IMG/VR virus record: IMGVR_UViG_3300018475_000128
DNA: 20,000 nt
Direction: 5' to 3' (one strand)
Origin: an uncultured virus (IMG/VR IMGVR_UViG_3300018475_000128)
Taxonomy: Duplodnaviria; Heunggongvirae; Uroviricota; Caudoviricetes
Positions within the stretch are counted from its first letter, which is position 1; every line of letters starts with the position of its first letter. The notes below the pieces were generated by a model. That model was not told the origin of the DNA and did not search any database. It worked only from the letters and a program-made list of their open reading frames with translations. The translations under genes were made by a program, and so were the position numbers. Shown piece after piece: positions 5,849-17,420 of the stretch.

Positions 5849-6997
5849 TTAGCCAGCGATAACGGGCTCCTCAATAACGATAGCTGAGTAAGGATCAACA
5901 AGAGCACCGGACAAGCGAGTCTCCATGAGATACTTGTACTGGTTGTAGTCGATGTCGAAGTCCTCGAAGCTAGTGATCTCGCCACCCTTAGCGCAACCGA
6001 ACTGATAGTTGCCCATATTTACGAAGATACCAAGAAGCTTGAACTCCTTATCCTCGTCATCCTTACGTGCTTCAAGATCAGCGAACTGCTCAACAGTAAA
6101 GATGTTAGCAACGTTCAATACCTTAGCAAGATCGGCAGCAGAGTCGTAGATACGACGGCCGTTCATGTCACGAGCAAGAAGCATGGTGTTGAGCAAGTTA
6201 GGATCACAGTAGAAGTCAAGAGCGCCCTTGCCCTTATACTTGATGCGAGCTTTCATAACTGCAGCAATAATGGCCTCAGAATAGATGAACTCCTCACCGA
6301 AGTTAGCGCCAGTGCCAGTACCCTGAAGCTTGGTCTTCATACCAGCTACGTCAACAGTCTGACGGATGGTGTAAAGCTCTTCGTCAGTCCAGATAGGACG
6401 AATATTCTGATCAGAGATCTTCTCATCACCTTCGTTGCGCTGATCGCCAACAAGAGCAGCAAGAGCTACAGTCTCTTCCATGGTGTGCTTCATGATATTG
6501 CGCATATATGCGATAGAATCGAAGTCCATATCGATAACGTCATCACGATGCAAGCTGTCCTTGACGTATACGGTCTGAGGATGAGTCTCACGCTTGAGCA
6601 ACTTAACGTTAGCAGCAGTCTTCTTCTGATCACCCTTCTTGTAACCCTTAGCAGTAAGTTCTGCTACACGAGCATCAATCTGGCGAGTACGAACACGAGC
6701 GATAGGGCTCTTGTTAGCTTTAGCCATTACATGACCAACCCAGCCCATGTCGCGCTCCAACAGAGCGGGAGCACCAGGATGAGCATCCTTTACATCGGTG
6801 AACAATACGTCGATGGGTTCGCCATCTTCTGCGCCGAAGCCATGAGCAAGGCTATCAGCATTGTTTCTAGCATAGATTTCTACGCCCTTCTTAAAGCTAC
6901 CTACAGATTTAGCAGTTTCGATAATTTCCATTTGGTCTGCGTGAGAGAGGAAAGTGCCCTCCTGCTCTACGTCACGTTCAAATACATTAGTGTGCAT
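5849..6997 (-). CDS. Probable internally initiated major capsid protein (382 aa, in frame within the fusion ORF)
   Basis: In-frame ATG (Met251, position 6997) preceded by AAGGAGG (7014-7008) with a 10-nt spacer. It shares the GAAGGAGGCAA context of the RBS at the 7747 start. Confidence 0.55.
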   Translation of the reverse strand: MHTNVFERDVEQEGTFLSHADQMEIIETAKSVGSFKKGVEIYARNNADSLAHGFGAEDGEPIDVLFTDVKDAHPGAPALLERDMGWVGHVMAKANKSPIARVRTRQIDARVAELTAKGYKKGDQKKTAANVKLLKRETHPQTVYVKDSLHRDDVIDMDFDSIAYMRNIMKHTMEETVALAALVGDQRNEGDEKISDQNIRPIWTDEELYTIRQTVDVAGMKTKLQGTGTGANFGEEFIYSEAIIAAVMKARIKYKGKGALDFYCDPNLLNTMLLARDMNGRRIYDSAADLAKVLNVANIFTVEQFADLEARKDDEDKEFKLLGIFVNMGNYQFGCAKGGEITSFEDFDIDYNQYKYLMETRLSGALVDPYSAIVIEEPVIAG

Positions 6998-7747
6998 AAT
7001 TTCATTGCCTCCTTCAGAATGTTTAACATTTTCATCATCTTCCTCATCGGTTACGCCAGCATCTTCAAGTGCCTGACCGATAAGTGCATAAACTACAGTC
7101 TTCTGCTCTTCAGTGAGAGTATCGAAGACATCTTTTACGGTTTTGTCTTTGGTTTCAGTTTCAGTCTTAGTTTCGGTTTTAGGCTCTTCTTTAACCTCAG
7201 TTTCAACCTTGTTTTCTTTTTCGTTTACCACGGGTTTGTCATCCTCCTTTTTGTTATTGTTTGAGTGCTCCAAAGTTTGATCTTCTTCAGTATAGTGATG
7301 AATCATAATATTCTCATCATAGCCTACGATCAAGCCCTCTTCTGTGTCTTCACCATGTACCATAACGGAATCGATGAATGCACCGGGATTTGCACCGGCC
7401 ATCACAATACTTACTTCTCTGATCATTCCATGAAGAACGTCATTACCAGTCTGTTTCAACTTGTTAGCGTAAATGGACAAAGCCTTTACGTCACCATGTC
7501 TAACAGCTTCTTTTGCTGCCAAGCCAGATTCGCTTTCGTTAAAGGTGCAGTATGCATAAACACCCTCATCGCGATTCTCAAGCAGCGCATGACCCAGAAT
7601 GTTATCGGGATCATTGTGATTGTGGTTCCAAACCAGAGGAACTGTCTGCCCATCGCTATGTTTGAATGCATCTTTACGAATTGTTCTACCATCACTGCAT
7701 AGGAGATCGTTTCTCGTGGCCCAACCACTAAAATGATATTGCTCCAT
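5849..7747 (-). CDS. Fused HK97-family prohead protease - acidic linker/scaffold - major capsid protein
   Basis: 632 aa. The N-terminal ~125 aa resemble a herpes-like/HK97 prohead protease (FSGWAT, 'VPLVWNHNH', 'LGHALLE', 'LSIYA', 'EVSIV..GANPGA'). An acidic E/K/T-rich linker follows. The C-terminal part looks like an HK97-fold capsid ('FEDFDIDYNQYKYLMETRLSGALV.PYSA'). Located after the portal. Confidence 0.88.
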   Translation of the reverse strand: MEQYHFSGWATRNDLLCSDGRTIRKDAFKHSDGQTVPLVWNHNHNDPDNILGHALLENRDEGVYAYCTFNESESGLAAKEAVRHGDVKALSIYANKLKQTGNDVLHGMIREVSIVMAGANPGAFIDSVMVHGEDTEEGLIVGYDENIMIHHYTEEDQTLEHSNNNKKEDDKPVVNEKENKVETEVKEEPKTETKTETETKDKTVKDVFDTLTEEQKTVVYALIGQALEDAGVTDEEDDENVKHSEGGNEIMHTNVFERDVEQEGTFLSHADQMEIIETAKSVGSFKKGVEIYARNNADSLAHGFGAEDGEPIDVLFTDVKDAHPGAPALLERDMGWVGHVMAKANKSPIARVRTRQIDARVAELTAKGYKKGDQKKTAANVKLLKRETHPQTVYVKDSLHRDDVIDMDFDSIAYMRNIMKHTMEETVALAALVGDQRNEGDEKISDQNIRPIWTDEELYTIRQTVDVAGMKTKLQGTGTGANFGEEFIYSEAIIAAVMKARIKYKGKGALDFYCDPNLLNTMLLARDMNGRRIYDSAADLAKVLNVANIFTVEQFADLEARKDDEDKEFKLLGIFVNMGNYQFGCAKGGEITSFEDFDIDYNQYKYLMETRLSGALVDPYSAIVIEEPVIAG

Positions 7748-7775: not shown

Positions 7776-9095
7776 TTATTCATCCATGAGCGCACTGATA
7801 GGTGCATCCCATAGACTTGGAGATTGTATATCATCAGAGGTCTCATTTTCATTTGACCCCGGATAATCATTAGTTGTAGACATCGGATTGCCCGATTGTC
7901 CATTTTCATCAGGATGATTAAGATTGCTATTACGCAACTCATCAGCCTTAGGATCATCAGACGGTTTCATACCGATAATCTGTCTAACTTCATTGCTGGA
8001 CAAGATTTCATTACGTGTAAACTTATCAGCAATGTCTGCAATATTATTGACAGGAACAAGCTTGAACGGATCTTTGAAGTACATGATTGTCTGACCCTGA
8101 GTTCTAGCTGTTTTTGTTAAGAAACTACGTTTCATAGCATCAACAATAGCTGACACTATTGGTTCAATAGTTCTATTATTATAGTTAAGCATTACTTTCT
8201 CATCGGCTGTACCGTCCAATACAGAAGGTGTCATACCGATTTGACTGTAAAGCTGATTTGTTAAATACTCGATCTGTTTCATGAGATTATTCTCAACAGG
8301 TCTATTTAACTGAGTAATTTTCTCGGTTCCATCAGTATAAGCAATACCGTATGGTCCTTTTAACTGATCCTCGATATCCTTGCGGCGCTTTTCAGCCTGT
8401 TGCTGACGAGCTTCGGTCTTAATTACATATGGTAACTGAATAATAAGATCCAATTTACCAGAACCACTCTGCTCATCAATAGCATCCAGAATATTCAGTT
8501 TTCTTATAAGACGCTGCATAGTCGAATTCGGTTCATTAATAACTGCATAGAGAGGATTCTCTATGATAGCAACCGTCTTTTTAGGAAGTATAATGTCTTC
8601 CCTCTTACCAGTCCTATCGTTATAGACTCGAACCTTGACATGAGCAGGATACCACTCTAAAATCTTTCCAGTTCGCATTGACAAGATATCATATGAACTA
8701 GATTTCATAGGATCGATTGAAGTATCAACAGGGACAATAGCTACGGCGCCTTCATCAAACATCGACATTACAACATCCTGAATAAAGGAACGTCCTGTCT
8801 GATCTATGTTGGCTTCGAGTGTCAAGCAGTCATTCAAGGTTGAATTCATATCTTCTATGTATCTACCATTTTTGTCTATACGACAATGTTTGATGGCTAT
8901 AGAAGCTACATCCATAGCTATTCGATTGTATACTGAGGTAACTGTCGATCGTTCGTTACCGCGAGTGAACCGCACACGGTCCGGACGATACACATAACCC
9001 ATACCAACATTGCTATACGGCACGGTCATGTTTTCTTGACTCTTTTTAAATGCATTCCACGCTCGTTTAAGCCTGGATGACAATGTTGACTCCAT
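7776..9095 (-). CDS. Portal protein (HK97-like)
   Basis: 439 aa from ATG 9095 (GAGGTGA RBS). Contains 'VYNRIAMDVASI', 'EANIDQTGRSF' and 'NEILSSNEVRQIIGMKP'. Located between the terminase region and the protease/capsid gene. Confidence 0.92.
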   Translation of the reverse strand: MESTLSSRLKRAWNAFKKSQENMTVPYSNVGMGYVYRPDRVRFTRGNERSTVTSVYNRIAMDVASIAIKHCRIDKNGRYIEDMNSTLNDCLTLEANIDQTGRSFIQDVVMSMFDEGAVAIVPVDTSIDPMKSSSYDILSMRTGKILEWYPAHVKVRVYNDRTGKREDIILPKKTVAIIENPLYAVINEPNSTMQRLIRKLNILDAIDEQSGSGKLDLIIQLPYVIKTEARQQQAEKRRKDIEDQLKGPYGIAYTDGTEKITQLNRPVENNLMKQIEYLTNQLYSQIGMTPSVLDGTADEKVMLNYNNRTIEPIVSAIVDAMKRSFLTKTARTQGQTIMYFKDPFKLVPVNNIADIADKFTRNEILSSNEVRQIIGMKPSDDPKADELRNSNLNHPDENGQSGNPMSTTNDYPGSNENETSDDIQSPSLWDAPISALMDE

Positions 9096-9108
9096 TTTGA
9101 CTTTCACC
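9090..9108 (-). promoter_or_regulatory. 19-bp exact repeat GGTGAAAGTCAAAATGGAG (RBS + start codon), copy 1 of 3
   Basis: Identical at 9090-9108, 9670-9688 and 12206-12224. This copy contains the portal ATG. Confidence 0.85.
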
Positions 9109-9675
9109 TCAATCCTTTAGTGTTTCATTAACAAAAGAATAGGCTCCAGCCAACTCTTCTTGTGACAGATTCGAAATTTTTCTATTCATCGCCGATATGT
9201 AGGCTTTATTATTAGCGATTTTCATACGAGCCTTAGCTGCTTTTTTAGCGACCTTGTCAGACTTAACAGAATACTTCATTGCTTTCGCTCCGTACCCAGT
9301 TGTCTTCGAAATTCTATTAGCATCTACTTTGGCTTTAGCAGACTTGTATTTAGCCTTCTCAGCCCTATATTCCAACGTTGAACGCTTAAATTCGTTATCG
9401 CTATTTAAAGCTTTCTTACCAAGATTAGCAGCTCTCTTAGCATACTTGGCAGACTTCTTAGCAGCACGATTATATCTTCCAAGATCCTTACTAGCATGTA
9501 GCTTTTCAGATTTCTTGTTGAAGTTTGCAGACTTAGCATCTAAAGCAAGAGCCTTATTTCGAAGTCGCTCATTTGATGCTGCTTTATGCTGAGCTCTCCT
9601 AACGCCCCATTTCATACCGACTACACCATAGTGGTAAAGTTCTTCACCTGAAGTTAAATAGTATTTATTCTCCAT
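9109..9675 (-). CDS. ELxH-YGxxGMKWGVRR leader protein with a very basic helical body (188 aa)
   Basis: MENKYYLTSGEELYHYGVVGMKWGVRR, followed by a Lys/Ala/Arg-rich sequence. The start lies in the 19-bp repeat. Confidence 0.8.
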   Translation of the reverse strand: MENKYYLTSGEELYHYGVVGMKWGVRRAQHKAASNERLRNKALALDAKSANFNKKSEKLHASKDLGRYNRAAKKSAKYAKRAANLGKKALNSDNEFKRSTLEYRAEKAKYKSAKAKVDANRISKTTGYGAKAMKYSVKSDKVAKKAAKARMKIANNKAYISAMNRKISNLSQEELAGAYSFVNETLKD

Positions 9676-9688
9676 TTTGACTTTCACC
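9670..9688 (-). promoter_or_regulatory. 19-bp exact repeat, copy 2 of 3
   Basis: Plus strand reads ctccattttgactttcacc. Contains the ATG of 9109..9675. Confidence 0.85.
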
Positions 9689-9691
9689 ACC

Positions 9692-10186
9692 TTACGAATT
9701 CTTGTCGAGTACGGATCTCGTCATATAACGAAATCCTGATTCGGCAAGGGTGGTTACAGCACCTGCACCGATATAGGCAGTCGCAAACGCTGGATTAAAT
9801 GCAGCCAAAGTTAAAGCGGTATATGCATTACTACCGATACTAGCTGCACCAAATAATTGATTAGTAACAGCAAGACCTCTTTTGATAGTAATGTTAGGAA
9901 CTTCTTTTACAGCGGTATCGCTGATGCTTTTACCAAGTTTATCTCGTTCGCTATTACTTTTAGCATTTCTAAACTGGTCTTCAACATCGCTCATGTATTT
10001 CTTCTTACGAAGATTAACTTTGCGTATTGAATCCTTGTATTGCTGTTTTGTGATCTTTCCAGAACGATATTGTTCTTTTAGTTGATCAGCAGCAACATTT
10101 CGGCGATGGTTAGCGAGAATTCGAGTATCTCTTCTAACGCCCCATTTCATTCCTGGGACGCCATAGTGGTATAATTCATCATTCAC
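9692..10186 (-). CDS. ELxH-YGxxGMKWGVRR leader protein with a C-terminal hydrophobic segment (164 aa)
   Basis: Probable GTG start at 10186 after GAGGTGG, giving (M)NDELYHYGVPGMKWGVRR. The C-terminus has an uncharged Ala/Gly-rich stretch, GLAVTNQLFGAASIGSNAYTALTLAAFNPAFATAYIGAGAVTTLA. Confidence 0.8.
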   Translation of the reverse strand: MNDELYHYGVPGMKWGVRRDTRILANHRRNVAADQLKEQYRSGKITKQQYKDSIRKVNLRKKKYMSDVEDQFRNAKSNSERDKLGKSISDTAVKEVPNITIKRGLAVTNQLFGAASIGSNAYTALTLAAFNPAFATAYIGAGAVTTLAESGFRYMTRSVLDKNS

Positions 10187-10197
10187 TGTTAACCACC

Positions 10198-10461
10198 TCA
10201 TCTCTTATAAACCGATGTGGGTAGTTCTTTACCAGAATTATATTCATCCATAGAAATATAAAACGGTTTAAAATCTCTAACTTCACCGGTCTTTTTATTA
10301 ACACTTATCAAACCGTCCAGCATAGGAGATCGTCTATTAGACAGTGACAACATATCGGGTGCTAAATGAAAGACAAATACCGAATCATACTCGAATACTT
10401 TTCCTACCTTAACAGCAGGATTCTTAAATTTTAAAAGCGCATAAGCTTGTTTAGCAGTCAT
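10198..10461 (-). CDS. Small protein, candidate immunity protein (YrhB/Imm35-like or PepSY-like fold)
   Basis: 87 aa, starting 4 nt after the toxin-like gene. It has an N-terminal helix (MTAKQAYALL), beta strands (VFEYDSVFVF) and 'ISVNKKTGEV'. It is the only gene of the cluster without an ELxH leader. Confidence 0.5.
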   Translation of the reverse strand: MTAKQAYALLKFKNPAVKVGKVFEYDSVFVFHLAPDMLSLSNRRSPMLDGLISVNKKTGEVRDFKPFYISMDEYNSGKELPTSVYKR

Positions 10462-10465
10462 GTCA

Positions 10466-11644
10466 TCACCTCTCCTTTCTGTTTCTAACAGTTCTTAATA
10501 TTTCTTCAGTTGGTTCTAAATTGTCAACTCGGACATAGTCATAACTAGATATTAGCGCTGGTTCATATCCTTCCATATTAATTATGATACCTGTAGCCCC
10601 TTCTGTAATATCTACTATTTTGCCATTCTGACAATCTCGAATTACGACTTCACCATTTTCTACTTCCCACACAACATCGTGTCCTCCGCCGTTAGCCCAA
10701 ATCAAACCTAGGTGACCTCTTGCTCCGTCGCCATTACTTTCGAGAGACTTTATTAACAACTCTTTTTTACTAAGAACATCGTCACGAGATTTTATTGTGG
10801 CATAATGCGCATTTCTAACATCAACATTGGATACACTTTTAGCACCTTTGTACCAACTACAAATATCATCAATTGTATAAGCTTCTACAGTGCTTATGGG
10901 GTTGGCTTCCACATCATATCCACGTTTTCGTAAATCGTATGCAGCGGTGCAAAAAGAACAGTTCATGCTGTAATCGTATGTTTTATCGTTGAATTTGGGG
11001 TTTACTTTCTTTTGGTGTTCGTCGTTGCTTTGTTTGCTATCAATTTTCTTAAGTTCAGAAAACGATTTAGGAGTTGTTAGTTCAACTTGTAAAGCTGCCA
11101 AAGCAGGAGCTACTAAATTAAAAACAGCTTTACCAAAACTACCGAATAGTGTTTGCGCTACAAAATTTTTAGCATTAGATTTTGCAGTATCAGAAGGTGT
11201 GGCATTAATTTTTTTATCCAAAGACTTATCAACAGTATTCTTTCCTTTTATATATGCCTGATAAGCTTTTTCTGAATAGAAGTACCTATATGTATCTCCG
11301 ACTGGAACTTTAGCTATGTATTTAAATACTCGCTTTTTAACCGAATCTATAATGTTTTTGGTACCGCTAGTTACTTTACTAATGGTATTTTTAACAGGCT
11401 TATTTACATACTTAGACAAAGTTTTCTTACCAGAGCCAACTAATTTACTAGTCTTTTTACCGATACTATTCAGTGTCGATTTAACGTCTTTTTTAAGACT
11501 CTTATAATCGTAATAGTACTTCCATTTACCTTTGACTTTTTCTTTTTTAATATACTTCCAGTGCATCAATTCGTCGTCTACCGATTCATCAATAGAACTA
11601 TGATGTATTAAATCACTAAGTGGAGTATCTCCGGTGATTTTCAT
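10466..11644 (-). CDS. ELMHWKYIK leader protein with a C-terminal papain-fold (Tox-PL / glutamine-deamidase-like) domain
   Basis: 392 aa. The C-terminal domain has 'VNP...NCSFCTAAYDLRKRGYDVEA' (Cys), 'GARGHLGLIWANGGGHDVVWEVENGEV' (His) and 'IRDCQNG' (Asp), matching the Cys-His-Asp order of papain-fold toxin domains. AAGGAGGTG RBS. Confidence 0.72.
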   Translation of the reverse strand: MKITGDTPLSDLIHHSSIDESVDDELMHWKYIKKEKVKGKWKYYYDYKSLKKDVKSTLNSIGKKTSKLVGSGKKTLSKYVNKPVKNTISKVTSGTKNIIDSVKKRVFKYIAKVPVGDTYRYFYSEKAYQAYIKGKNTVDKSLDKKINATPSDTAKSNAKNFVAQTLFGSFGKAVFNLVAPALAALQVELTTPKSFSELKKIDSKQSNDEHQKKVNPKFNDKTYDYSMNCSFCTAAYDLRKRGYDVEANPISTVEAYTIDDICSWYKGAKSVSNVDVRNAHYATIKSRDDVLSKKELLIKSLESNGDGARGHLGLIWANGGGHDVVWEVENGEVVIRDCQNGKIVDITEGATGIIINMEGYEPALISSYDYVRVDNLEPTEEILRTVRNRKER

Positions 11645-11677
11645 TCACACACCTCCTTTTAGTTTAAAAAATAGAAT

Positions 11678-12211
11678 TTAATATAATCCTCTATAACCCG
11701 CAAGCTTTCTAGCTTCGGAATCGTTATTTATACTTTCTTCAATACCAACTCTTCTGTTAGTTTTGAAGATATCGCTGTCGACAAACATTTCACCGGCAGA
11801 CTCTCCTATTACAGTTCCGACAATTTTTCGTCCAAGACCTGCAATAAAAGTCTTACCTTTAGCCTTTTTGAGAGCGCTACGTTCGTCCATCATATCCTGA
11901 TAAGACATTGACATGACTTTACTACTCTCCAAATATTCCATACCGCTAGCTTTAAACAAACGATACTGGGCTTTCGCAAATCTATTGCTTGTAAACAGAC
12001 CACCTTTAGTCATAGCTTTTTTTTCTAGTCTATTGCGATTTGCTAGAAGTTTATCGACTTGGTATTTTTCAACTATTTTATCGAGTTCTTTTGATTTGTA
12101 TTTATCAAGTCGTTTTTGACCGGCTTCAGTCAAACTGCCGTCGGCATTCTGGTAGCGACGAACACCCCATCGCATACCCTTCGTACCATAATGATAGAGT
12201 TCACGCTCCAT
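11678..12211 (-). CDS. ELxH-YGxxGMRWGVRRYQNxDGSLT leader protein (177 aa)
   Basis: MERELYHYGTKGMRWGVRRYQNADGSLTEAGQKR, followed by a basic body of unknown function. The start lies in the 19-bp repeat. Confidence 0.8.
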   Translation of the reverse strand: MERELYHYGTKGMRWGVRRYQNADGSLTEAGQKRLDKYKSKELDKIVEKYQVDKLLANRNRLEKKAMTKGGLFTSNRFAKAQYRLFKASGMEYLESSKVMSMSYQDMMDERSALKKAKGKTFIAGLGRKIVGTVIGESAGEMFVDSDIFKTNRRVGIEESINNDSEARKLAGYRGLY

Positions 12212-12224
12212 TTTGACTTTCACC
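12206..12224 (-). promoter_or_regulatory. 19-bp exact repeat, copy 3 of 3
   Basis: Plus strand reads ctccattttgactttcacc. Contains the ATG of 11678..12211. Confidence 0.85.
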
Positions 12225-12724
12225 TACTTTTTCTTACTAAACATCTTAGATAACGATTTGGTTATGGCTTTAGTACCTTTATCGATCTTAGATTTTGCTG
12301 CCCGAAGCTTATAAAGAGGTGTTGCTTCATATTTCTTAACAGCATCTTTGTATTTCTTCTCAGAATTTTTAAATTTAGTAGACATGCGTTGTTCCCATTT
12401 TTTATTACTTTTATACTCGTCAATATATTCGTAGTGTTTTTCATTTCCTGTCTTTAAGGCATTCATGACTTTCTTTCTAGAATAACTTGAGTCTTTGACA
12501 GCGTCGTCGTATTTTTTCTTTCTATCGTCCATGTTACTTTTGGCTTTTTTCATTTCGGCTTCAGCATACTGACCGTAGTCATAGTAGTAACGCCATTTGC
12601 CATTGGGGAGTTTTTCTCTCTTGATATACTTCCAGTGCATCAATTCGCCTTCATCAAGATCTATGTAGCGGATGTCTCCACCATGCATAAGCACATCAAC
12701 AGGTGTGTTCATATCTATTCTCAT
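12224..12724 (-). CDS. ELMHWKYIK leader protein with a Lys-rich coiled-coil body (166 aa)
   Basis: Probable ATG at 12724 after AGGGGTGA, giving MRIDMNTPVDVLMHGG...GELMHWKYIKREKLPNGKWRYYYDY. The N-terminus is paralogous to that of 10466..11644. Confidence 0.8.
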   Translation of the reverse strand: MRIDMNTPVDVLMHGGDIRYIDLDEGELMHWKYIKREKLPNGKWRYYYDYGQYAEAEMKKAKSNMDDRKKKYDDAVKDSSYSRKKVMNALKTGNEKHYEYIDEYKSNKKWEQRMSTKFKNSEKKYKDAVKKYEATPLYKLRAAKSKIDKGTKAITKSLSKMFSKKK

Positions 12725-12740
12725 TTCGCTTTTCACCCCT

Positions 12741-14486
12741 TTATTCAAAAGCTTCTTTGTTTACCTTCCAAGCAACGAAGGCATCAAGTAATGCAGCTAC
12801 AGGGTCAATTTTTGCCTCGTAGCGTTTCTTTAATAATTTGCGGTTACCGTTAGTATCTTCAAGAGTAATACAGTTACCCATGGCATAAGACATAAGCTCC
12901 TCATCAAACAGAAGCATTCTTTGCTCAGACAAGTTCTTTAACTCACCTAGCGGTACAGATTCTGTCTTAGCTCCCTGAATAACTTTCTCAATACCAAACG
13001 GTCCGTTTTCACGTTCCCAACGCTCAACAAATTCGCGAGCATTATATGGGTCGAAGCCGAAGCATCGAACATCATAATTACACTCAATAATGTGATTGTC
13101 GAGATCGTCATAAACTTCCATCATATCCAAGATGGTTCCTTCTAGAACTATTAAACTACCTTCTTTCATAAACTCGTCATACTTGGCGCGCATAGCCGAA
13201 GGAAGTTTCATAATTGTAGTAGAGGAGATGTAGTTTCGGGTTTTAATACCGAAAGTACCATCTCGAAGTGGGAATAAGAATGTAAATGAGCAGAAGTCAT
13301 TTCCTTGCGATAAGTCTGCACCTAACGAACAAGGAAGTTTCCAATAATCTCTCTTCCTATGCGGAAGTGTTTCTTCATAAGTGAAGTAATATGTATAACC
13401 TTCCATCGGAATGCCGAAACGTTTTGCGAGAATATCATTACGTGCAGAAGGATTATGTTCTGCTTTTTCAACATCCTGATGGTAAACATCATACTGTACA
13501 GTTTGACCTAGATTAGGATTGGCTTTAAGCCACATTCTAGGATCTTTAACCTCGTCAACCGAATCAAGCTTATACCACCAGATAGAAACACGAGGGTTCT
13601 GATACTCGCCTTTTAGTATCTTAGACAACTCCATTTTGATTGAGTCGCCAGGACCATTACGAACTGTACCCTCTGAACTGATTGCAACTATTAAATAGTC
13701 GTCATTCTTGGATGCGCCCTGTTCGGCAGCACCGATAACATCTTCTCTGATATCACCGGATAACCATTCGTCAATGGTCCAAATTCTAGCTCTGGAACCC
13801 TGAATCTTATCAATACTCATAGGTTTGATTTCCAGTATAGAACCAGTTAAGAAGTTTTCAATACCTTTCTTTGTGGAAGCGAGCTTCACTCGGTTGGCTT
13901 TTGAGCCAGTGGTGTTCTGTAAAGAACCTTCAGTAAGGAATTTAAACAGAGGACCTCTAGCTCGAGTAATTGAGGTTTGAATCGGAGAGAGTACTTCGAG
14001 AGCTTGTCTCATGGTAGGTGCTGTTGTAACCTGCTCGGTTGTTGACGTGTCAACATTCAGGAAGAAGCTATGTAGGCATGAGCCATACATGGATTTTGCA
14101 GCACCACGAGCTACTATCAGATACTGTTTCTGGGTCAAACGCCGTTTAATACGTTTATTAACATAGCGACCGCCACGTCCATCTTTAGAAGGTACATATA
14201 CACTTCGCTCTTCGAAGAAGTACCATCCAAAAATTTGTTCTGCCCATAGTTTGAATGAGTCTAATAGATAAAGATCGTCTCCATCAGTTAGTGTCAATTC
14301 ACTCTCGCAGTATTCGATGAAACCATTAATTGCCTGATCGTCGTAATAGATACCAGGATTAGCAATAAGTTCATCGATTCGGTTCATTTCCATTGAGATT
14401 TCTTTATTTACAGGAATTTCTCCTCGAATGACTTTATCTCGAAATTCACCGTAATATTTAGGAGTAGCGGTATTAGATAAGGCCAT
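12741..14486 (-). CDS. terL: Terminase large subunit
   Basis: 581 aa with Walker A 'VARGAAKS', Walker B 'IWTIDEW', 'WLKANPNLG', and nuclease motifs 'GADLSQGND' and 'KIDPVAALLDA'. Confidence 0.95.
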   Translation of the reverse strand: MALSNTATPKYYGEFRDKVIRGEIPVNKEISMEMNRIDELIANPGIYYDDQAINGFIEYCESELTLTDGDDLYLLDSFKLWAEQIFGWYFFEERSVYVPSKDGRGGRYVNKRIKRRLTQKQYLIVARGAAKSMYGSCLHSFFLNVDTSTTEQVTTAPTMRQALEVLSPIQTSITRARGPLFKFLTEGSLQNTTGSKANRVKLASTKKGIENFLTGSILEIKPMSIDKIQGSRARIWTIDEWLSGDIREDVIGAAEQGASKNDDYLIVAISSEGTVRNGPGDSIKMELSKILKGEYQNPRVSIWWYKLDSVDEVKDPRMWLKANPNLGQTVQYDVYHQDVEKAEHNPSARNDILAKRFGIPMEGYTYYFTYEETLPHRKRDYWKLPCSLGADLSQGNDFCSFTFLFPLRDGTFGIKTRNYISSTTIMKLPSAMRAKYDEFMKEGSLIVLEGTILDMMEVYDDLDNHIIECNYDVRCFGFDPYNAREFVERWERENGPFGIEKVIQGAKTESVPLGELKNLSEQRMLLFDEELMSYAMGNCITLEDTNGNRKLLKKRYEAKIDPVAALLDAFVAWKVNKEAFE

Positions 14487-14509
14487 TAGTCATCGCCCTC
14501 CTCGACAAT

Positions 14510-15514
14510 TTATGATTGTTTGTAATAGCGATCATAGTATAGGTTCCAAGCATCGTTATCCATTTTGTCCAACATCTTGTCTACCTTTTTCTCATAAGCC
14601 TTGGTACCATAGACAACGGTGTCCTTATCTGCTTTTTCAGCTGCTTTCTCGGCGGCTTTAGCTGCTTTTTCAACTTCTTTAATAATCGCCCTCTCAGCAG
14701 CTTTAGCTTCTCTTTCAGCAGCTTTAACTGCTCTTTCCTTTGCTTCGGCTGCTTTTTTAGCTACTTTTTCAGCTGCGTCAGCTTCTGCTTTCTTAGCTGC
14801 TGCTTTCTCAGCGGCTTCTCTTTCGGAAGCTTCCTGTTTCTTTCTAGTTCTTTCATTAGTTTCCCATTGCTGCTTCTTGAGTCTCTCTTCCCAAGTTAGA
14901 TTACTATCATCGCTTTTACCCTTCTTAAGATTATCGATCTTCTTCTCCCAATCCAACTTCTTGTATTCGTTTTCGAGTTCCTTAAGAGGATCGGTGTTAT
15001 TGAGACCGAGCTTATCTTTAAGAGTATTTTCAAGCCAGGATTTACCAACATTCTTTGCGGCGGGAGCCACTACATCATTCATGAGAGAACTTACAAAACG
15101 CTGCCCGGCAGATACCTTTGGCGGATTAGCATTCGCAAGATTTTTCTGAGCGTTATAATAATTAGCCTCTGCTTGTAGACGACTAGTACGTTCCCAAAGT
15201 TCTTCGTTGGTCATTTCACTAACTGTCTTCTTATGAACAGGTTTAGAAGGTGTTCTTTTACCATTCAACTCGTTTTCCCATTCTTCAAGTTCTCTACGTT
15301 TAGCATTCAACCTATCAAACTTATCTTTCGCAGATTGACGTTTCTTGAGACTTCGCTCTTTCTCTTTTAGAGATTGCATTTCGTCAGAATAACGCTTCTT
15401 ACCAGCATCGGTTAAACTACCGTCGGAATTCTGATAGCGTCTTACTCCCCATCGCATACCTTTTATACCCCAGTGGGTTAATTCGTCGTTTGTATTGTGG
15501 GTTTTATACTCCAT
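14510..15514 (-). CDS. ELxH-WGxxGMRWGVRRYQNxDGSLT leader protein with long helical, EAAEKAAAKK-rich body (334 aa)
   Basis: NDELTHWGIKGMRWGVRRYQNSDGSLTDAGKKRY, then 'VSEMTNEEL..RTSRLQAE' and an A/E/K low-complexity helix. GAGGAGG RBS. Confidence 0.82.
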   Translation of the reverse strand: MEYKTHNTNDELTHWGIKGMRWGVRRYQNSDGSLTDAGKKRYSDEMQSLKEKERSLKKRQSAKDKFDRLNAKRRELEEWENELNGKRTPSKPVHKKTVSEMTNEELWERTSRLQAEANYYNAQKNLANANPPKVSAGQRFVSSLMNDVVAPAAKNVGKSWLENTLKDKLGLNNTDPLKELENEYKKLDWEKKIDNLKKGKSDDSNLTWEERLKKQQWETNERTRKKQEASEREAAEKAAAKKAEADAAEKVAKKAAEAKERAVKAAEREAKAAERAIIKEVEKAAKAAEKAAEKADKDTVVYGTKAYEKKVDKMLDKMDNDAWNLYYDRYYKQS

Positions 15515-15533: not shown

Positions 15534-16613
15534 TTAGATGTAGTGAATAGATGCGAGTTTTTTCTGATCCCACTCGAAGATCATGAAGCGACGATGCGCA
15601 CCCACGAAATCTTCTTTATCGGACCAACCATCAACTTTGCCTCCGGATGATAGTCTTCTGACCATCACGCCATAAATGTCAGCCTCTGCTTCATGATGAA
15701 GATGTCCAGCATGGACTTCTCTAATATCAGCATTAGCAAACTCGTTGGCAAATGAGATGGGGAAAATATGTGCTAAATTCTTAGCTGTAGCCTGTCTAGA
15801 ATCGCCGTGTGTTATCATGATGGCATTTCTACCATAAGTAACTACTTTACGATATTCTAAAGTATCGTCAACTACTGAATCACCGTATCTCTCAAGGAGA
15901 ACTTGACAGAACATCCATGCGGTACTTCTATCATGGTTACCAGCAGAATACAGAACTTTAACGTCATTAGCACACTGAATAGCCGTGTCTATTAAAGAGT
16001 ACATAAACTGTTTACCCTCTTTAACTGCACGGATCATATCTACTTTTTCAATAGTAGTACCCTTAGTGGTCTGACCATTAATGATACTATCATTGTGAAA
16101 GAAATCCTGTCCGAAAGGAATTACAATCTTGTCCCACTTTCGACTAGTGATGAGATCTAAAATCTCGTTAAGCACCGGCTCATAGTGATCCATAAAGGCC
16201 ACACCCCAGTGCATATCAAAAAGAGGAATCTCTAGCATTCGAGTAGCGTCATTGAAGTCTTTTGGTGTGTACACAAAAGGCTCTACGCTTTCACGAATAG
16301 CTGCTATAAATTCCTCAGGGTTTATATCACTAGCTTTTTGTTTAATCCAAGCTTGTACGATTTCTCCGGACTTAGATACTTGAACAGTTGCATCGTGAGC
16401 GATAAAGCCTTCATAGGTGCCACACTCGAGAGTGAGATCATCTAAGTCTTGCTTGTCTGCCCACTTATACATCGAACTACGAAAAGAGTTATAACTCATC
16501 GGTTCGACAACATTTTGTGTAAAGTATTCGTCATAAATATTTCTATAGGACATACCTTCAGATCGCATTTTTAGACATGTTTTCTTTACGTGAATAGGGA
16601 TAACTTTTTGCAT
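15534..16613 (-). CDS. Calcineurin-like metallophosphoesterase with a probable N-terminal HTH
   Basis: All five metal-binding motifs are present: 'FDMHWG', 'GQDFFH', 'AGNHD', 'THGD' and 'GHLHH'. The N-terminal 'GMSYRNIY...SYNSFRSSMYKW' is HTH-like. Probable start is ATG 16613 after AAGGGGTGA. Confidence 0.82.
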   Translation of the reverse strand: MQKVIPIHVKKTCLKMRSEGMSYRNIYDEYFTQNVVEPMSYNSFRSSMYKWADKQDLDDLTLECGTYEGFIAHDATVQVSKSGEIVQAWIKQKASDINPEEFIAAIRESVEPFVYTPKDFNDATRMLEIPLFDMHWGVAFMDHYEPVLNEILDLITSRKWDKIVIPFGQDFFHNDSIINGQTTKGTTIEKVDMIRAVKEGKQFMYSLIDTAIQCANDVKVLYSAGNHDRSTAWMFCQVLLERYGDSVVDDTLEYRKVVTYGRNAIMITHGDSRQATAKNLAHIFPISFANEFANADIREVHAGHLHHEAEADIYGVMVRRLSSGGKVDGWSDKEDFVGAHRRFMIFEWDQKKLASIHYI

Positions 16614-16628
16614 AAGTATCACCCCTTT

Positions 16629-16979: not shown

Positions 16980-17420
16980 TTAAATGTTAGCGTTTACAAA
17001 CTTTCTCATGCAATAGCCTTCGCCACCAGTAACGGTGCGGATTTTGAACCACTCATCAGTAGACTCATCTACATCGATGGTAACTTCAACATCTTTATCT
17101 AATACGCAAATAACGTCGCCATTAACGCTGGGTTTTGATCTAACATTAAGTTTTGCGCAATTTGCTACTACACCTTTTCCCACTGCACCAGAATTAGTTT
17201 CGGTCTCTGTGGTGGTCTCAGTTTCAACAGTAGTATCAACAGTAGTATCAACAGTAGTATTAACAACAGTCTCAACAGTAGTCTCTACAACAGTTTCTAC
17301 TTCTTCAGTAACAGCAGTTACATCTCCATTTTGATTATCTACTGTACCTTCAGGAGTGGTATCGAATTTATTATTATAGTTTTTCTTGTTAGAATATTGG
17401 GAATAATTGTGCTTAGACAT
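16980..17420 (-). CDS. Protein with a Thr/Val/Glu-rich linker and a C-terminal bacterial SH3 (SH3b) domain
   Basis: The C-terminus 'GVVANCAKLNVRSKPSVNGDVICVLDKDVEVTI...EWFKIRTVTGGEGYCMRKFV' matches the SH3b consensus (LNVR.GP....vi..l..G..v......W......GyV). AAGGAGG RBS. Confidence 0.8.
   Translation of the reverse strand: MSKHNYSQYSNKKNYNNKFDTTPEGTVDNQNGDVTAVTEEVETVVETTVETVVNTTVDTTVDTTVETETTTETETNSGAVGKGVVANCAKLNVRSKPSVNGDVICVLDKDVEVTIDVDESTDEWFKIRTVTGGEGYCMRKFVNANI
17221..17300. repeat. 12-bp coding tandem repeat (CAACAGTAGTAT x3 plus degenerate copies)
   Basis: Three exact copies at 17225-17260. The region encodes ETVV/ETTV/NTTV/DTTV tetrapeptides. Confidence 0.85.

What the first reader, a model, noticed from the sequence alone, without database searches (positions are those of the whole stretch)
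9109..15514. Six-gene family of shared 'EL-x-H' leaders on unrelated C-termini around terL/portal: candidate capsid-loaded polymorphic cargo/effector system
Seen in sequence: four genes begin ELxH[YW]GxxGM[KR]WGVRR (9109-9675, 9692-10186, 11678-12211, 14510-15514). Two begin ...ELMHWKYIK[KR]EK..GKW[KR]YYYDY (10466-11644, 12224-12724). After the leader the proteins are unrelated: a basic helix, a hydrophobic hairpin, a papain-fold enzyme, a coiled coil and an A/E/K helix. All lie inside the DNA-packaging/head operon. Established knowledge: conserved N-terminal addressing domains on variable C-termini define polymorphic toxin systems, including phage MuF toxins encoded near portal genes. T4 internal proteins also use a short N-terminal capsid-targeting sequence that the prohead protease removes. 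Inference: these leaders load proteins into the prohead, which are then ejected into the host (anti-defence, takeover or toxin). No MuF-like gene is apparent here, so this would be a different delivery module.
Basis: partly seen in the sequence, partly recalled or inferred. Interest (0 to 1): 0.9.

Follow-up and report, generated by a model that had tools for sequence, protein, structure and literature searches.

The report
Protease-unmasked cargo tags in phage heads
This phage starts six unrelated basic proteins, one of them an enzyme with its own inhibitor gene next door, with the same cutting site that studs its capsid precursor, followed by a short tag that stays on after the cut, so they are probably packed into the virus head and delivered with the DNA.

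Summary
Confirmed. Six genes of the head operon of a 1706/Rima-type siphophage begin acidic-E-L-x-H. Four continue with Pfam DUF7211 (tag A); two with an unrelated Tyr/Lys hairpin (tag B). The same L-x-H fills the spacer of the protease-capsid fusion (162 of 178 His, 27 relatives) and lies just before the capsid fold, so it is probably the prohead-protease site. Unlike T4's targeting peptide, the conserved tag lies after the cut and heads every module of polyproteins. Tag A marks 52,673 protein clusters; cargo includes GNAT, 2H, ART-fold and papain enzymes, and a variant heads the phage RNA polymerase. All 180 mature tag-A proteins are basic. New support: depositors of Lactococcus phage 1706 label both of its tagged proteins, including the polymerase, 'structural'. 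Most cargo has no enzyme fold and one is a core gene. Cleavage and ejection are inferred. The scan noted the tag and spacer idea before on five other genomes; I found no paper on it.

The parts
14510..15514 (-). Tag A (DUF7211) core protein, 334 aa; predicted cut after H14; basic helical body of the family found between adaptor and terL in most relatives
   Evidence: PF23847 E 4.5e-11; largest C-terminal cluster, 48 of 182; family present in 58 of 71 loci holding adaptor and terL; body net +16
12741..14486 (-). Terminase large subunit (context, untagged)
   Evidence: PF20441 E 5e-32, phrog_9
12224..12724 (-). Tag B protein, 166 aa; two L-x-H sites (H14, H30) around an acidic linker; basic coiled body
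   Evidence: 53 homologues all carry tag B, bodies fall in 7 clusters and diverge right after the tag; body net +23
11678..12211 (-). Tag A protein, 177 aa, predicted cut after H7; body has no relative in the fetched loci
   Evidence: PF23847 E 3.5e-9; singleton cluster; body net +14
10466..11644 (-). Tag B papain-fold enzyme (Tox-PL1 type), 392 aa; L-x-H at H14/15 and H28, second B hairpin near residue 105, catalytic C229, H322, D337
   Evidence: PF15644 E 1.4e-8; triad invariant in 85 sequences; 102 of 120 homologues carry tag B
10198..10461 (-). Untagged 87-aa PepSY/Imm35-like protein, predicted inhibitor (immunity protein) of the papain enzyme
   Evidence: follows the papain gene in 11 of 11 loci, 7 distinct; Imm35 leads; complex score 0.83 vs best control 0.01, interface on residues 226-230 and 315-323
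9692..10186 (-). Tag A protein, 164 aa, predicted cut after H7; basic body with a mildly hydrophobic C-terminal helix pair
   Evidence: PF23847 E 6.8e-12; body net +15
9109..9675 (-). Tag A protein, 188 aa, predicted cut after H15; very basic helix; orthologue kept in the close relative L006
   Evidence: PF23847 E 6.3e-11; body net +30; 75% identical to L006
7776..9107 (-). Portal protein (context, untagged)
   Evidence: PF04860 E 6.7e-19
7373..7747 (-). S78 prohead protease domain of the protease-capsid fusion (residues 1-125); H53, S87, E111 conserved
   Evidence: PF04586 above cut-off, TIGR01543 below cut-off; conservation in 27 sequences
6842..7372 (-). Acidic spacer/scaffold of the fusion (residues 126-302) with aliphatic-x-His sites at H131, H150/151, H161, H243, H252, H269, H302
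5849..6841 (-). Predicted mature major capsid protein, 330 aa from G303
   Evidence: last site lies 3-23 residues before the conserved capsid start in 27 of 27 sequences; phrog_3270

Best explanation
The six proteins are head cargo of a 1706/Rima/Secretariat-type siphophage. Step 1 (inferred): they co-assemble into the prohead, whose subunits are protease-spacer-capsid fusions. Step 2 (inferred from strong sequence evidence): the fused S78 protease cuts after aliphatic-x-His, shredding its own acidic spacer, removing each cargo's short acidic pro-piece and splitting polyproteins into modules. Step 3 (inferred): the cut unmasks a basic-aromatic tag (A: [YHW]GxxGMKWG; B: the WKYIK..W.YYY hairpin; C on the RNA polymerase) at the new N-terminus of a strongly basic protein; the tag holds the piece in the head, probably on DNA or at the portal, and leads it out with the genome. 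Step 4 (inferred): delivered cargo starts transcription (polymerase) and acts on the host or its defences (papain, GNAT, ART-fold, 2H). The papain enzyme is kept off in the producing cell by the untagged 87-aa inhibitor, which is left behind. Shown here: the motifs, their co-location, modularity, turnover and charge pattern.
For: Spacer: 162 of 178 His have L/I/V/M at -2 (expected 19%), against 25 of 139 in the capsid fold and 35 of 307 in cargo bodies; last site 3-23 residues before the capsid fold in 27 of 27. Tags: L at -2 in 181 of 183 distinct tag-A proteins; all 225 tag-A ORFs on the terL strand; all 22 DUF7211 matches in 5 complete records lie in the head operon, 0 of 14 control genomes. 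Polyproteins: 148 of the top 150 hits have 2-5 tags; 284 of 302 internal tags have L at -2; linkers are acidic and carry extra sites (292 of 496 His vs 210 of 1224 elsewhere). Charge: 180 of 180 mature tag-A proteins net positive, vs 0 of 70 TerL, 4 of 59 portals. The same papain domain carries tag B here and tag A in other phages. Phage 1706 record EU081845 labels orf7 (tags A, A, B) and orf75 (RNA polymerase, tag C) 'structural protein'. Papain-inhibitor model 0.83 vs best control 0.01, runs agree in at least 80% of contacts, partner pLDDT at least 81; mark reached by 116 of 157 solved and 2 of 215 mismatched pairs.
Against: No cleavage site of this protease has been mapped; no solved structure of the capsid protein or cargo exists. 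Aliphatic-x-His alone is not specific: it is also enriched at conserved folded sites of portal, adaptor, terminator, HNH and the protease domain and occurs in the first 45 residues of 31 of 120 inhibitor homologues. Two untagged 1706 proteins (orf62, orf71) are also labelled structural, so the label does not prove the tag is the cause, and I could not read the paper behind it. Five of six cargoes here, and about 106 of 128 representatives, show no enzyme fold. A siphovirus tail is a narrow path, so folded cargo must unfold; ejection is untested. Counts are not independent, as the sequences are related.
Confidence: 0.7

Rival explanations
1. Internal structural proteins. The tagged proteins are loaded and trimmed, but serve as basic DNA-neutralising or core/scaffold proteins that stay in the head; the tag is only a DNA- or shell-binding peptide.
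For: All 180 mature tag-A proteins are basic, median +20.5; most bodies are low-complexity helices; one member is a core gene (58 of 71 loci); B-tag bodies look like fast-diverging versions of one helical type.
Against: The tagged set includes an RNA polymerase with a DFDGD motif, GNAT, 2H, ART-fold and papain enzymes and an enzyme with an adjacent inhibitor, which have no use inside a closed head. May hold for some members only.
Confidence: 0.14
2. Toxin-antitoxin or lysis-released toxin cassettes parked in a late operon: the proteins act in the producing cell or are released at lysis, and the shared N-terminus is only a recombination anchor and translation start.
For: Papain gene plus small downstream inhibitor gene is the usual toxin-immunity layout; tag-coding DNA of two genes is 78-79% identical over 72-77 nt; a 3.1-kb block is missing from the close relative L006.
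Against: The tag is conserved as protein, with free synonymous codons; it recurs inside polyproteins behind L-x-H; the site matches the capsid spacer; both tagged 1706 proteins are labelled virion proteins.
Confidence: 0.06
3. L-x-H is not a cut site but part of one binding motif (for a capsid, portal or protease pocket, or a metal), and nothing is cleaved there.
For: Some leaders are only 3-7 residues long, so little would be removed; His/Asp/Glu-rich spacers can bind metals; no cleavage data exist.
Against: The site sits at the exact border of the capsid fold in 27 of 27 precursors and on both sides of acidic linkers; known prohead proteases cut after comparable x-x-P1 motifs with several sites per propeptide (A-X-E in SPN3US).
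Confidence: 0.1

Closest known systems
Pfam PF23847 (DUF7211)
   Same: Tag A of four window genes is this family, above its cut-off.
   Different: Pfam gives no function; it does not cover tag B or tag C, the link to the capsid spacer, or the polyprotein layout.
Phage T4 capsid targeting sequence, internal proteins IPI-III and Alt (PMC9958956, passages read)
   Same: Short N-terminal address on non-essential head cargo, trimmed by the prohead protease; cargo includes an ADP-ribosyltransferase and anti-defence proteins.
   Different: In T4 the roughly 10-residue address is the piece cut off; here the conserved tag lies after the predicted cut and stays on each module. Site ends in His, not Glu; the protease is fused to the capsid protein; siphovirus; tens of thousands of cargo clusters.
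SPN3US/phiKZ ejection proteins cleaved at A-X-E (PMC10052503, passages read)
   Same: A three-residue motif repeated in propeptides, shared by capsid protein and ejected proteins.
   Different: Jumbo myoviruses with a free protease; the passages I read report no shared tag on the mature N-termini.
MuF polymorphic toxins (PMC5576092) and phage polyvalent proteins (PMC5512222), passages read
   Same: Variable effectors (papain Tox-PL1, ART, GNAT, 2H) in the packaging module, small immunity ORF downstream, proposed head delivery.
   Different: No MuF domain; the address is a 12-25-residue peptide used by up to 8 genes per genome; processing is predicted by the prohead protease, not by embedded metallopeptidases.
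Tox-PL1 / Imm35 toxin-immunity pair (PMC3482391, passages read)
   Same: Papain fold with NC, H, D signature followed by a small alpha+beta protein that caps the active site in the model.
   Different: The 87-aa protein does not reach the Imm35 Pfam model; only feature and structure leads under the bar. Here the pair is phage-encoded with tag B.
Virion RNA polymerases of crassviruses and N4 (PMC10172136, passages read)
   Same: Head-stored cargo including an RNA polymerase, ejected by partial unfolding.
   Different: Podoviruses with large dedicated cargo; no portable peptide tag described in the passages read.

Membership tests
DUF7211 (PF23847) | HMM score above the gathering cut-off of 27 bits | tested here: met
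   4 of 6 genes, 36-45 bits; the two tag-B genes do not match
MuF polymorphic toxins | N-terminal MuF domain | tested here: not met
   No MuF hit among 24 window proteins in Pfam or 23 in PHROGs; PF04233 in 0 of 5 related records, 3 of them complete, while 5 of 14 controls hit. MuF2-4 models not searched in relatives.
Polymorphic toxin system (general) | Conserved N-terminal trafficking part on variable C-termini | tested here: met
   182 tag-A bodies in 66 clusters, 49 singletons; tag-B bodies in 7 clusters
Polymorphic toxin system (general) | Cognate immunity gene directly downstream of the toxin | tested here: met
   For the papain gene only: 11 of 11 loci, complex 0.83 vs 0.01. Other tagged genes are mostly followed by another tagged or core gene.
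Polymorphic toxin system (general) | Demonstrated toxicity to a target cell | not testable with these tools
   No assay possible
Tox-PL1 papain-fold toxin (PF15644) | HMM above cut-off and NC, H, D catalytic residues | tested here: met
   36.2 bits, cut-off 24.1; N228, C229, H322, D337 invariant in 85 sequences
Imm35 (PF15567) | HMM match to PF15567 | tested here: inconclusive
   No hit in 7 of 7 family members; weak PepSY in 2; Atlas leads 0.82 by features and TM 0.57-0.62, under the bar; fold search best Z 4.9 with PepSY-type chains near the top
T4-type capsid targeting sequence | Address peptide is N-terminal of the protease site and is removed | tested here: not met
   Conserved residues lie after L-x-H; the piece before it is 3-30 variable acidic residues. 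Rests on the inferred cut position.
T4-type capsid targeting sequence | Peptide is sufficient to package a foreign protein | not testable with these tools
   Needs a reporter fusion
S78/U35 prohead protease | PF04586 match with conserved His, Ser and acidic catalytic residues | tested here: met
   25.1 bits, cut-off 21; H53, S87, E111 conserved in 27 sequences; their catalytic roles are assigned from recalled HK97 gp4 data
Ca. Heliusvirales | [quoted passage not shown] | tested here: inconclusive
   The paper lists them as two marker genes; here they are one fused ORF and the nearest named TerLs are Streptomyces BI and Gordonia DJ phages. The marker HMMs were not run.

The most novel reading that the evidence does not exclude
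A lineage-wide, portable protein-delivery code for a siphophage: the prohead protease unmasks an N-terminal tag that acts as an ejection signal, so any domain placed behind acidic-L-x-H plus tag is loaded, matured and injected, from the phage's own RNA polymerase to inhibitor-guarded toxins. With over 50,000 tagged protein clusters this would be among the largest unexplored pools of injected phage effectors, and a new class of polymorphic toxin export route.
Probability: 0.4. Interest if true: 0.92.

Novelty: new variant of a known kind. Interest (0 to 1): 0.78.

Why it matters
How phages choose which proteins to pack and eject is known for very few systems, and hardly at all for long non-contractile-tailed phages. 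A 12-25-residue tag plus a three-residue protease site makes the question directly testable in cultured phages (Lactococcus 1706, Streptomyces Rima, Gordonia and Arthrobacter phages). It would give DUF7211 a function, predict a His-specific prohead protease and a virion-borne RNA polymerase for a widespread gut, soil and dairy lineage, turn the tag into a search handle for tens of thousands of candidate anti-defence and host-takeover proteins, and offer a way to deliver proteins into Gram-positive bacteria.

Tried and rejected
Heliusvirales assignment: my first guess, dropped because the protease and capsid are fused here and the nearest named relatives are the 1706/BI/DJ/AM/AU/CC group. One six-member family: rejected, tags A and B do not align. 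DNA-level repeat as cause of the motif: rejected, synonymous codons vary freely in 158 distinct tags. Solved structures: no relative of the protease-capsid fusion or the papain protein by sequence. Fold search of the 87-aa model gave best Z 4.9, rmsd 4.1 over 74 residues, none at Z 5 or more; this is consistent with a PepSY-like fold but names no family. NCBIfam gave nothing for the seven genes. Portal C-terminal L-x-H as a general processing site: present in only a minority of portals, not pursued. The window's own genome is not held; the nearest record is a 5.9-kb fragment, so this phage's own RNA polymerase, host and lifestyle were not seen; the polymerase was not found in the three partial records closest to it. 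The 1706 paper is not held. Literature searches for the tag (DUF7211, PF23847, WGVRR; five motif spellings) and for the lineage or mechanism found no description; the library lacks most subscription papers and supplements were not searched. Sequence look-up in earlier scan notes gave nothing, nor did a word search for the papain-inhibitor pair.
Full report
Setting. The window is the minus-strand morphogenesis operon of a siphophage: HNH, SH3 protein, head-tail adaptor, a metallophosphoesterase, terL, portal, a protease-capsid fusion, connectors, tail tube, chaperone and tape measure. Its TerL is 75-80% identical to Streptomyces BI, Gordonia DJ and gut phages; 251 of 50,697 phage records match at E 1e-60. 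This is the Actinobacteria/Firmicutes group of bioRxiv 10.1101/842583 (passages read), which includes Lactococcus phage 1706 and has a YonO-like RNA polymerase as signature gene. The window's own genome is not held.

Observation. The six ORFs are real, and E-L-x-H lies in the first 45 residues of exactly these 6 of 24 genes tested. Four match DUF7211 above cut-off (tag A); two carry another motif (tag B). A and B do not align as profiles, and the six bodies are unrelated. In each protein the piece up to the His is acidic (net -1 to -6) and the rest is basic (+14 to +30), while the other operon proteins are mostly acidic. The tag is conserved as protein: synonymous codons vary freely in 158 distinct copies.

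Distribution. A 71-aa query with tag A hit 244 phage records, with organism tallies nearly the same as for TerL (251), the protease-capsid fusion (244) and the polymerase (250) (tallies compared, not record lists). In 80 IMG/VR loci, 5 GenBank regions and the window, all 225 tag-A ORFs lie on the terL strand in the packaging region. In 5 complete records all 22 DUF7211 matches lie there; 0 of 14 control genomes match. Of 59 loci spanning adaptor and portal, tagged genes number 1-8 (the single zero is an overlap artefact, and tag B is undercounted). A 33-column tag-A profile finds 52,673 clusters at 50% identity with E up to 0.001 among 1.84 billion.

Variability and cargo. 182 distinct tag-A bodies fall in 66 BLAST clusters, 49 of them singletons. 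The largest (48) is a core family upstream of terL, to which 14510-15514 belongs; it is present in 58 of 71 loci holding adaptor and terL. L006, with TerL 93% identical, keeps the 9109 gene (75%) and the core gene but lacks the block 9652-12732. Tag-B homologues switch bodies right after the tag (7 clusters among 54), though many look like one helical type. Among 128 tag-A representatives about 22 have a recognisable enzyme: GNAT 3, papain 4 more, 2H 2, a weak AAA 1 and 12 of a family with ART leads (Atlas 0.87-0.90; model pLDDT 68; Foldseek best a cyanophage pre-ejectosome chain E 3.5e-4 with poor overall fit, then MbcT E 6e-3 and weaker ART-fold hits). The polymerases of gut relatives, Rima and 1706 start with L-x-H and a variant tag C and hold DFDGD. 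All 180 distinct mature tag-A proteins are net positive, against 0 of 70 TerL and 4 of 59 portals.

The site. Earlier scan notes pointed to L-x-H in the capsid precursor; I tested it. In 27 fusions under 80% identity, 162 of 178 His in the spacer have L/I/V/M at -2 (19% expected), against 25 of 139 in the capsid fold and 35 of 307 in cargo bodies; the last site lies 3-23 residues before the capsid fold in 27 of 27, giving 330 aa here (7 of 53 fusions were dropped because they lacked my N-terminal anchor motif, and the rest were dereplicated). The pattern alone is not specific: portal, adaptor, terminator, HNH and the protease domain also exceed expectation through single conserved folded sites, and the sequences are related. 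Known prohead proteases cut after such motifs, with several sites per propeptide (A-X-E in SPN3US; PMC10052503, passages). The best 150 hits of the tag profile are mostly polyproteins: 148 carry 2-5 tags, 284 of 302 internal tags have L at -2, the 20 residues before them average net -2.8, and the 60-residue linkers carry extra sites (292 of 496 His against 210 of 1224 elsewhere). The window's two tag-B proteins have the same double site. So the acidic linker is the part removed and each module keeps its tag. In T4 the roughly 10-residue targeting sequence is the part removed (PMC9958956, passages). One tag per polyprotein would suffice for loading; one per module suggests a job after the cut (inference; recent gene fusion could also explain it).

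Virion evidence. The depositors' record of phage 1706 (EU081845; bases 1-25,000 and 43,000-55,597 viewed) labels orf7, which has tags A, A and B each behind L-x-H, and orf75, the polymerase with tag C, as 'structural protein'. These are the only tagged proteins found in that genome. Eleven ORFs carry that label in the parts viewed; with portal, capsid and two tail proteins that makes 15, the number I recall from the mass spectrometry in Garneau et al. 2008 (recalled; paper not held). Two untagged proteins, orf62 and orf71, are labelled as well, so the label shows presence, not cause.

The inhibitor. The untagged 87-aa ORF at 10198-10461 follows the papain gene. A protein of the same family follows it in 11 of 11 loci (7 distinct), and 17 contig lengths coincide between the two homologue lists (read by eye, indirect). 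The papain domain carries tag B in 102 of 120 close homologues, tag A in four other distinct phages, and no tag in the same reading frame in two. Its triad is invariant. The small protein folds confidently (pLDDT 83), has weak PepSY hits in 2 of 7 members and Imm35 leads under the bar; Imm35 is reported as specific to Tox-PL1 (PMC3482391, passages). The complex scored 0.83 against a best control of 0.01, runs agreeing in at least 80% of contacts, partner pLDDT at least 81, with the interface over residues 226-230 and 315-323, which hold C229 and H322; the mark was reached by 116 of 157 solved and 2 of 215 mismatched pairs, counts holding only roughly with my own alignments. None of 120 homologues has E-L-x-H near the start, though 31 have the looser pattern.

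Mechanism and rivals. Most likely the proteins enter the prohead, are cut after L-x-H by the fused protease, keep a basic-aromatic tag that holds them on DNA or portal, and leave with the genome; the inhibitor protects the producing cell and is not packed (0.70). Rivals: retained internal structural proteins (0.14), an uncut binding motif (0.10), lysis-released or in-cell toxin cassettes (0.06). Shown: motifs, location, modularity, turnover, charge. Predicted: the enzyme-inhibitor complex. Inferred: cleavage, loading by the tag, ejection, targets.

Comparison and novelty. It works like T4 internal proteins and MuF toxins (PMC5576092, passages; PMC5512222, passages; PMC9503650, passages; crassvirus cargo, PMC10172136, passages) but is a member of neither: no MuF and a retained tag. 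DUF7211 is catalogued without function. Searches found no description; subscription papers and supplements were out of reach and may bear on this. PMC7302621, PMC5883640, PMC4155818, PMC11283538 and PMC13432834 were seen as passages and added only context. The scan noted the tag and spacer idea on five other genomes; the 1706 labels, the polyprotein linkers and the inhibitor pair are my own results here. Verdict: real, a new variant of a known kind, interest 0.78.

Noticed in passing
window, minus strand, sites starting at 17334, 15519, 13639, 12216, 9680, 9100, 7752, 5827, 3794, 3782, 3077: The DNA word TCAAAATGG occurs 11 times on the coding strand and never on the other. TCAAAATG is the commonest 8-mer over all loci, 451 against 6 reverse, also in actinophages and 1706; it sits on start codons of the protease-capsid, portal and tag-A genes, but 269 copies are not at starts. 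Candidate promoter of the phage RNA polymerase or translational operator.
   Followed up: partly
L003:2426-5503, L091, L092 (RNA polymerases of relatives): The lineage's YonO-like RNA polymerase begins with acidic L-x-H and a variant tag (C) and is labelled structural in phage 1706, which predicts a virion-borne polymerase in a siphovirus.
   Followed up: partly
window 15534-16622 (-): Untagged metallophosphoesterase (phrog_704) inserted between adaptor and the core tagged gene; seen in only a few relatives (L006, L007, L010, L012).
   Followed up: no
window 16980-17420 (-): Protein with a Thr/Val/Glu-rich linker and a C-terminal SH3 domain between HNH and adaptor, present in a subset of relatives; cell-wall binding role unexplained.
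   Followed up: no
L002:5953-7653 and L005:10681-12276 (Gordonia phage Secretariat, Rhodococcus phage ReqiPepy6): A 2H phosphoesterase is fused in front of the core tagged protein, with the tag internal; 2H enzymes can degrade immune signalling nucleotides.
   Followed up: no
L020:3355-4290, L024:8889-9986 and relatives: Second commonest cargo family (22 of 182) has an ART/RES-like fold; its best Foldseek hit is a cyanophage pre-ejectosome protein.
   Followed up: partly
L043, L047, L048, L052, L063 between terL and portal: Untagged inserts of 1-5 kb with tail-like genes, and in L043 and L047 a reverse-transcriptase-like ORF with a small accessory gene, occupy the same slot; possibly a diversity-generating element, not tested.
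   Followed up: no
window 7776-9107 (-), portal C-terminus: An L-N-H site precedes the acidic disordered tail of the portal here and in a minority of relatives, and many relatives have R-L-x-H-A-W at the portal N-terminus; possible portal trimming.
   Followed up: partly
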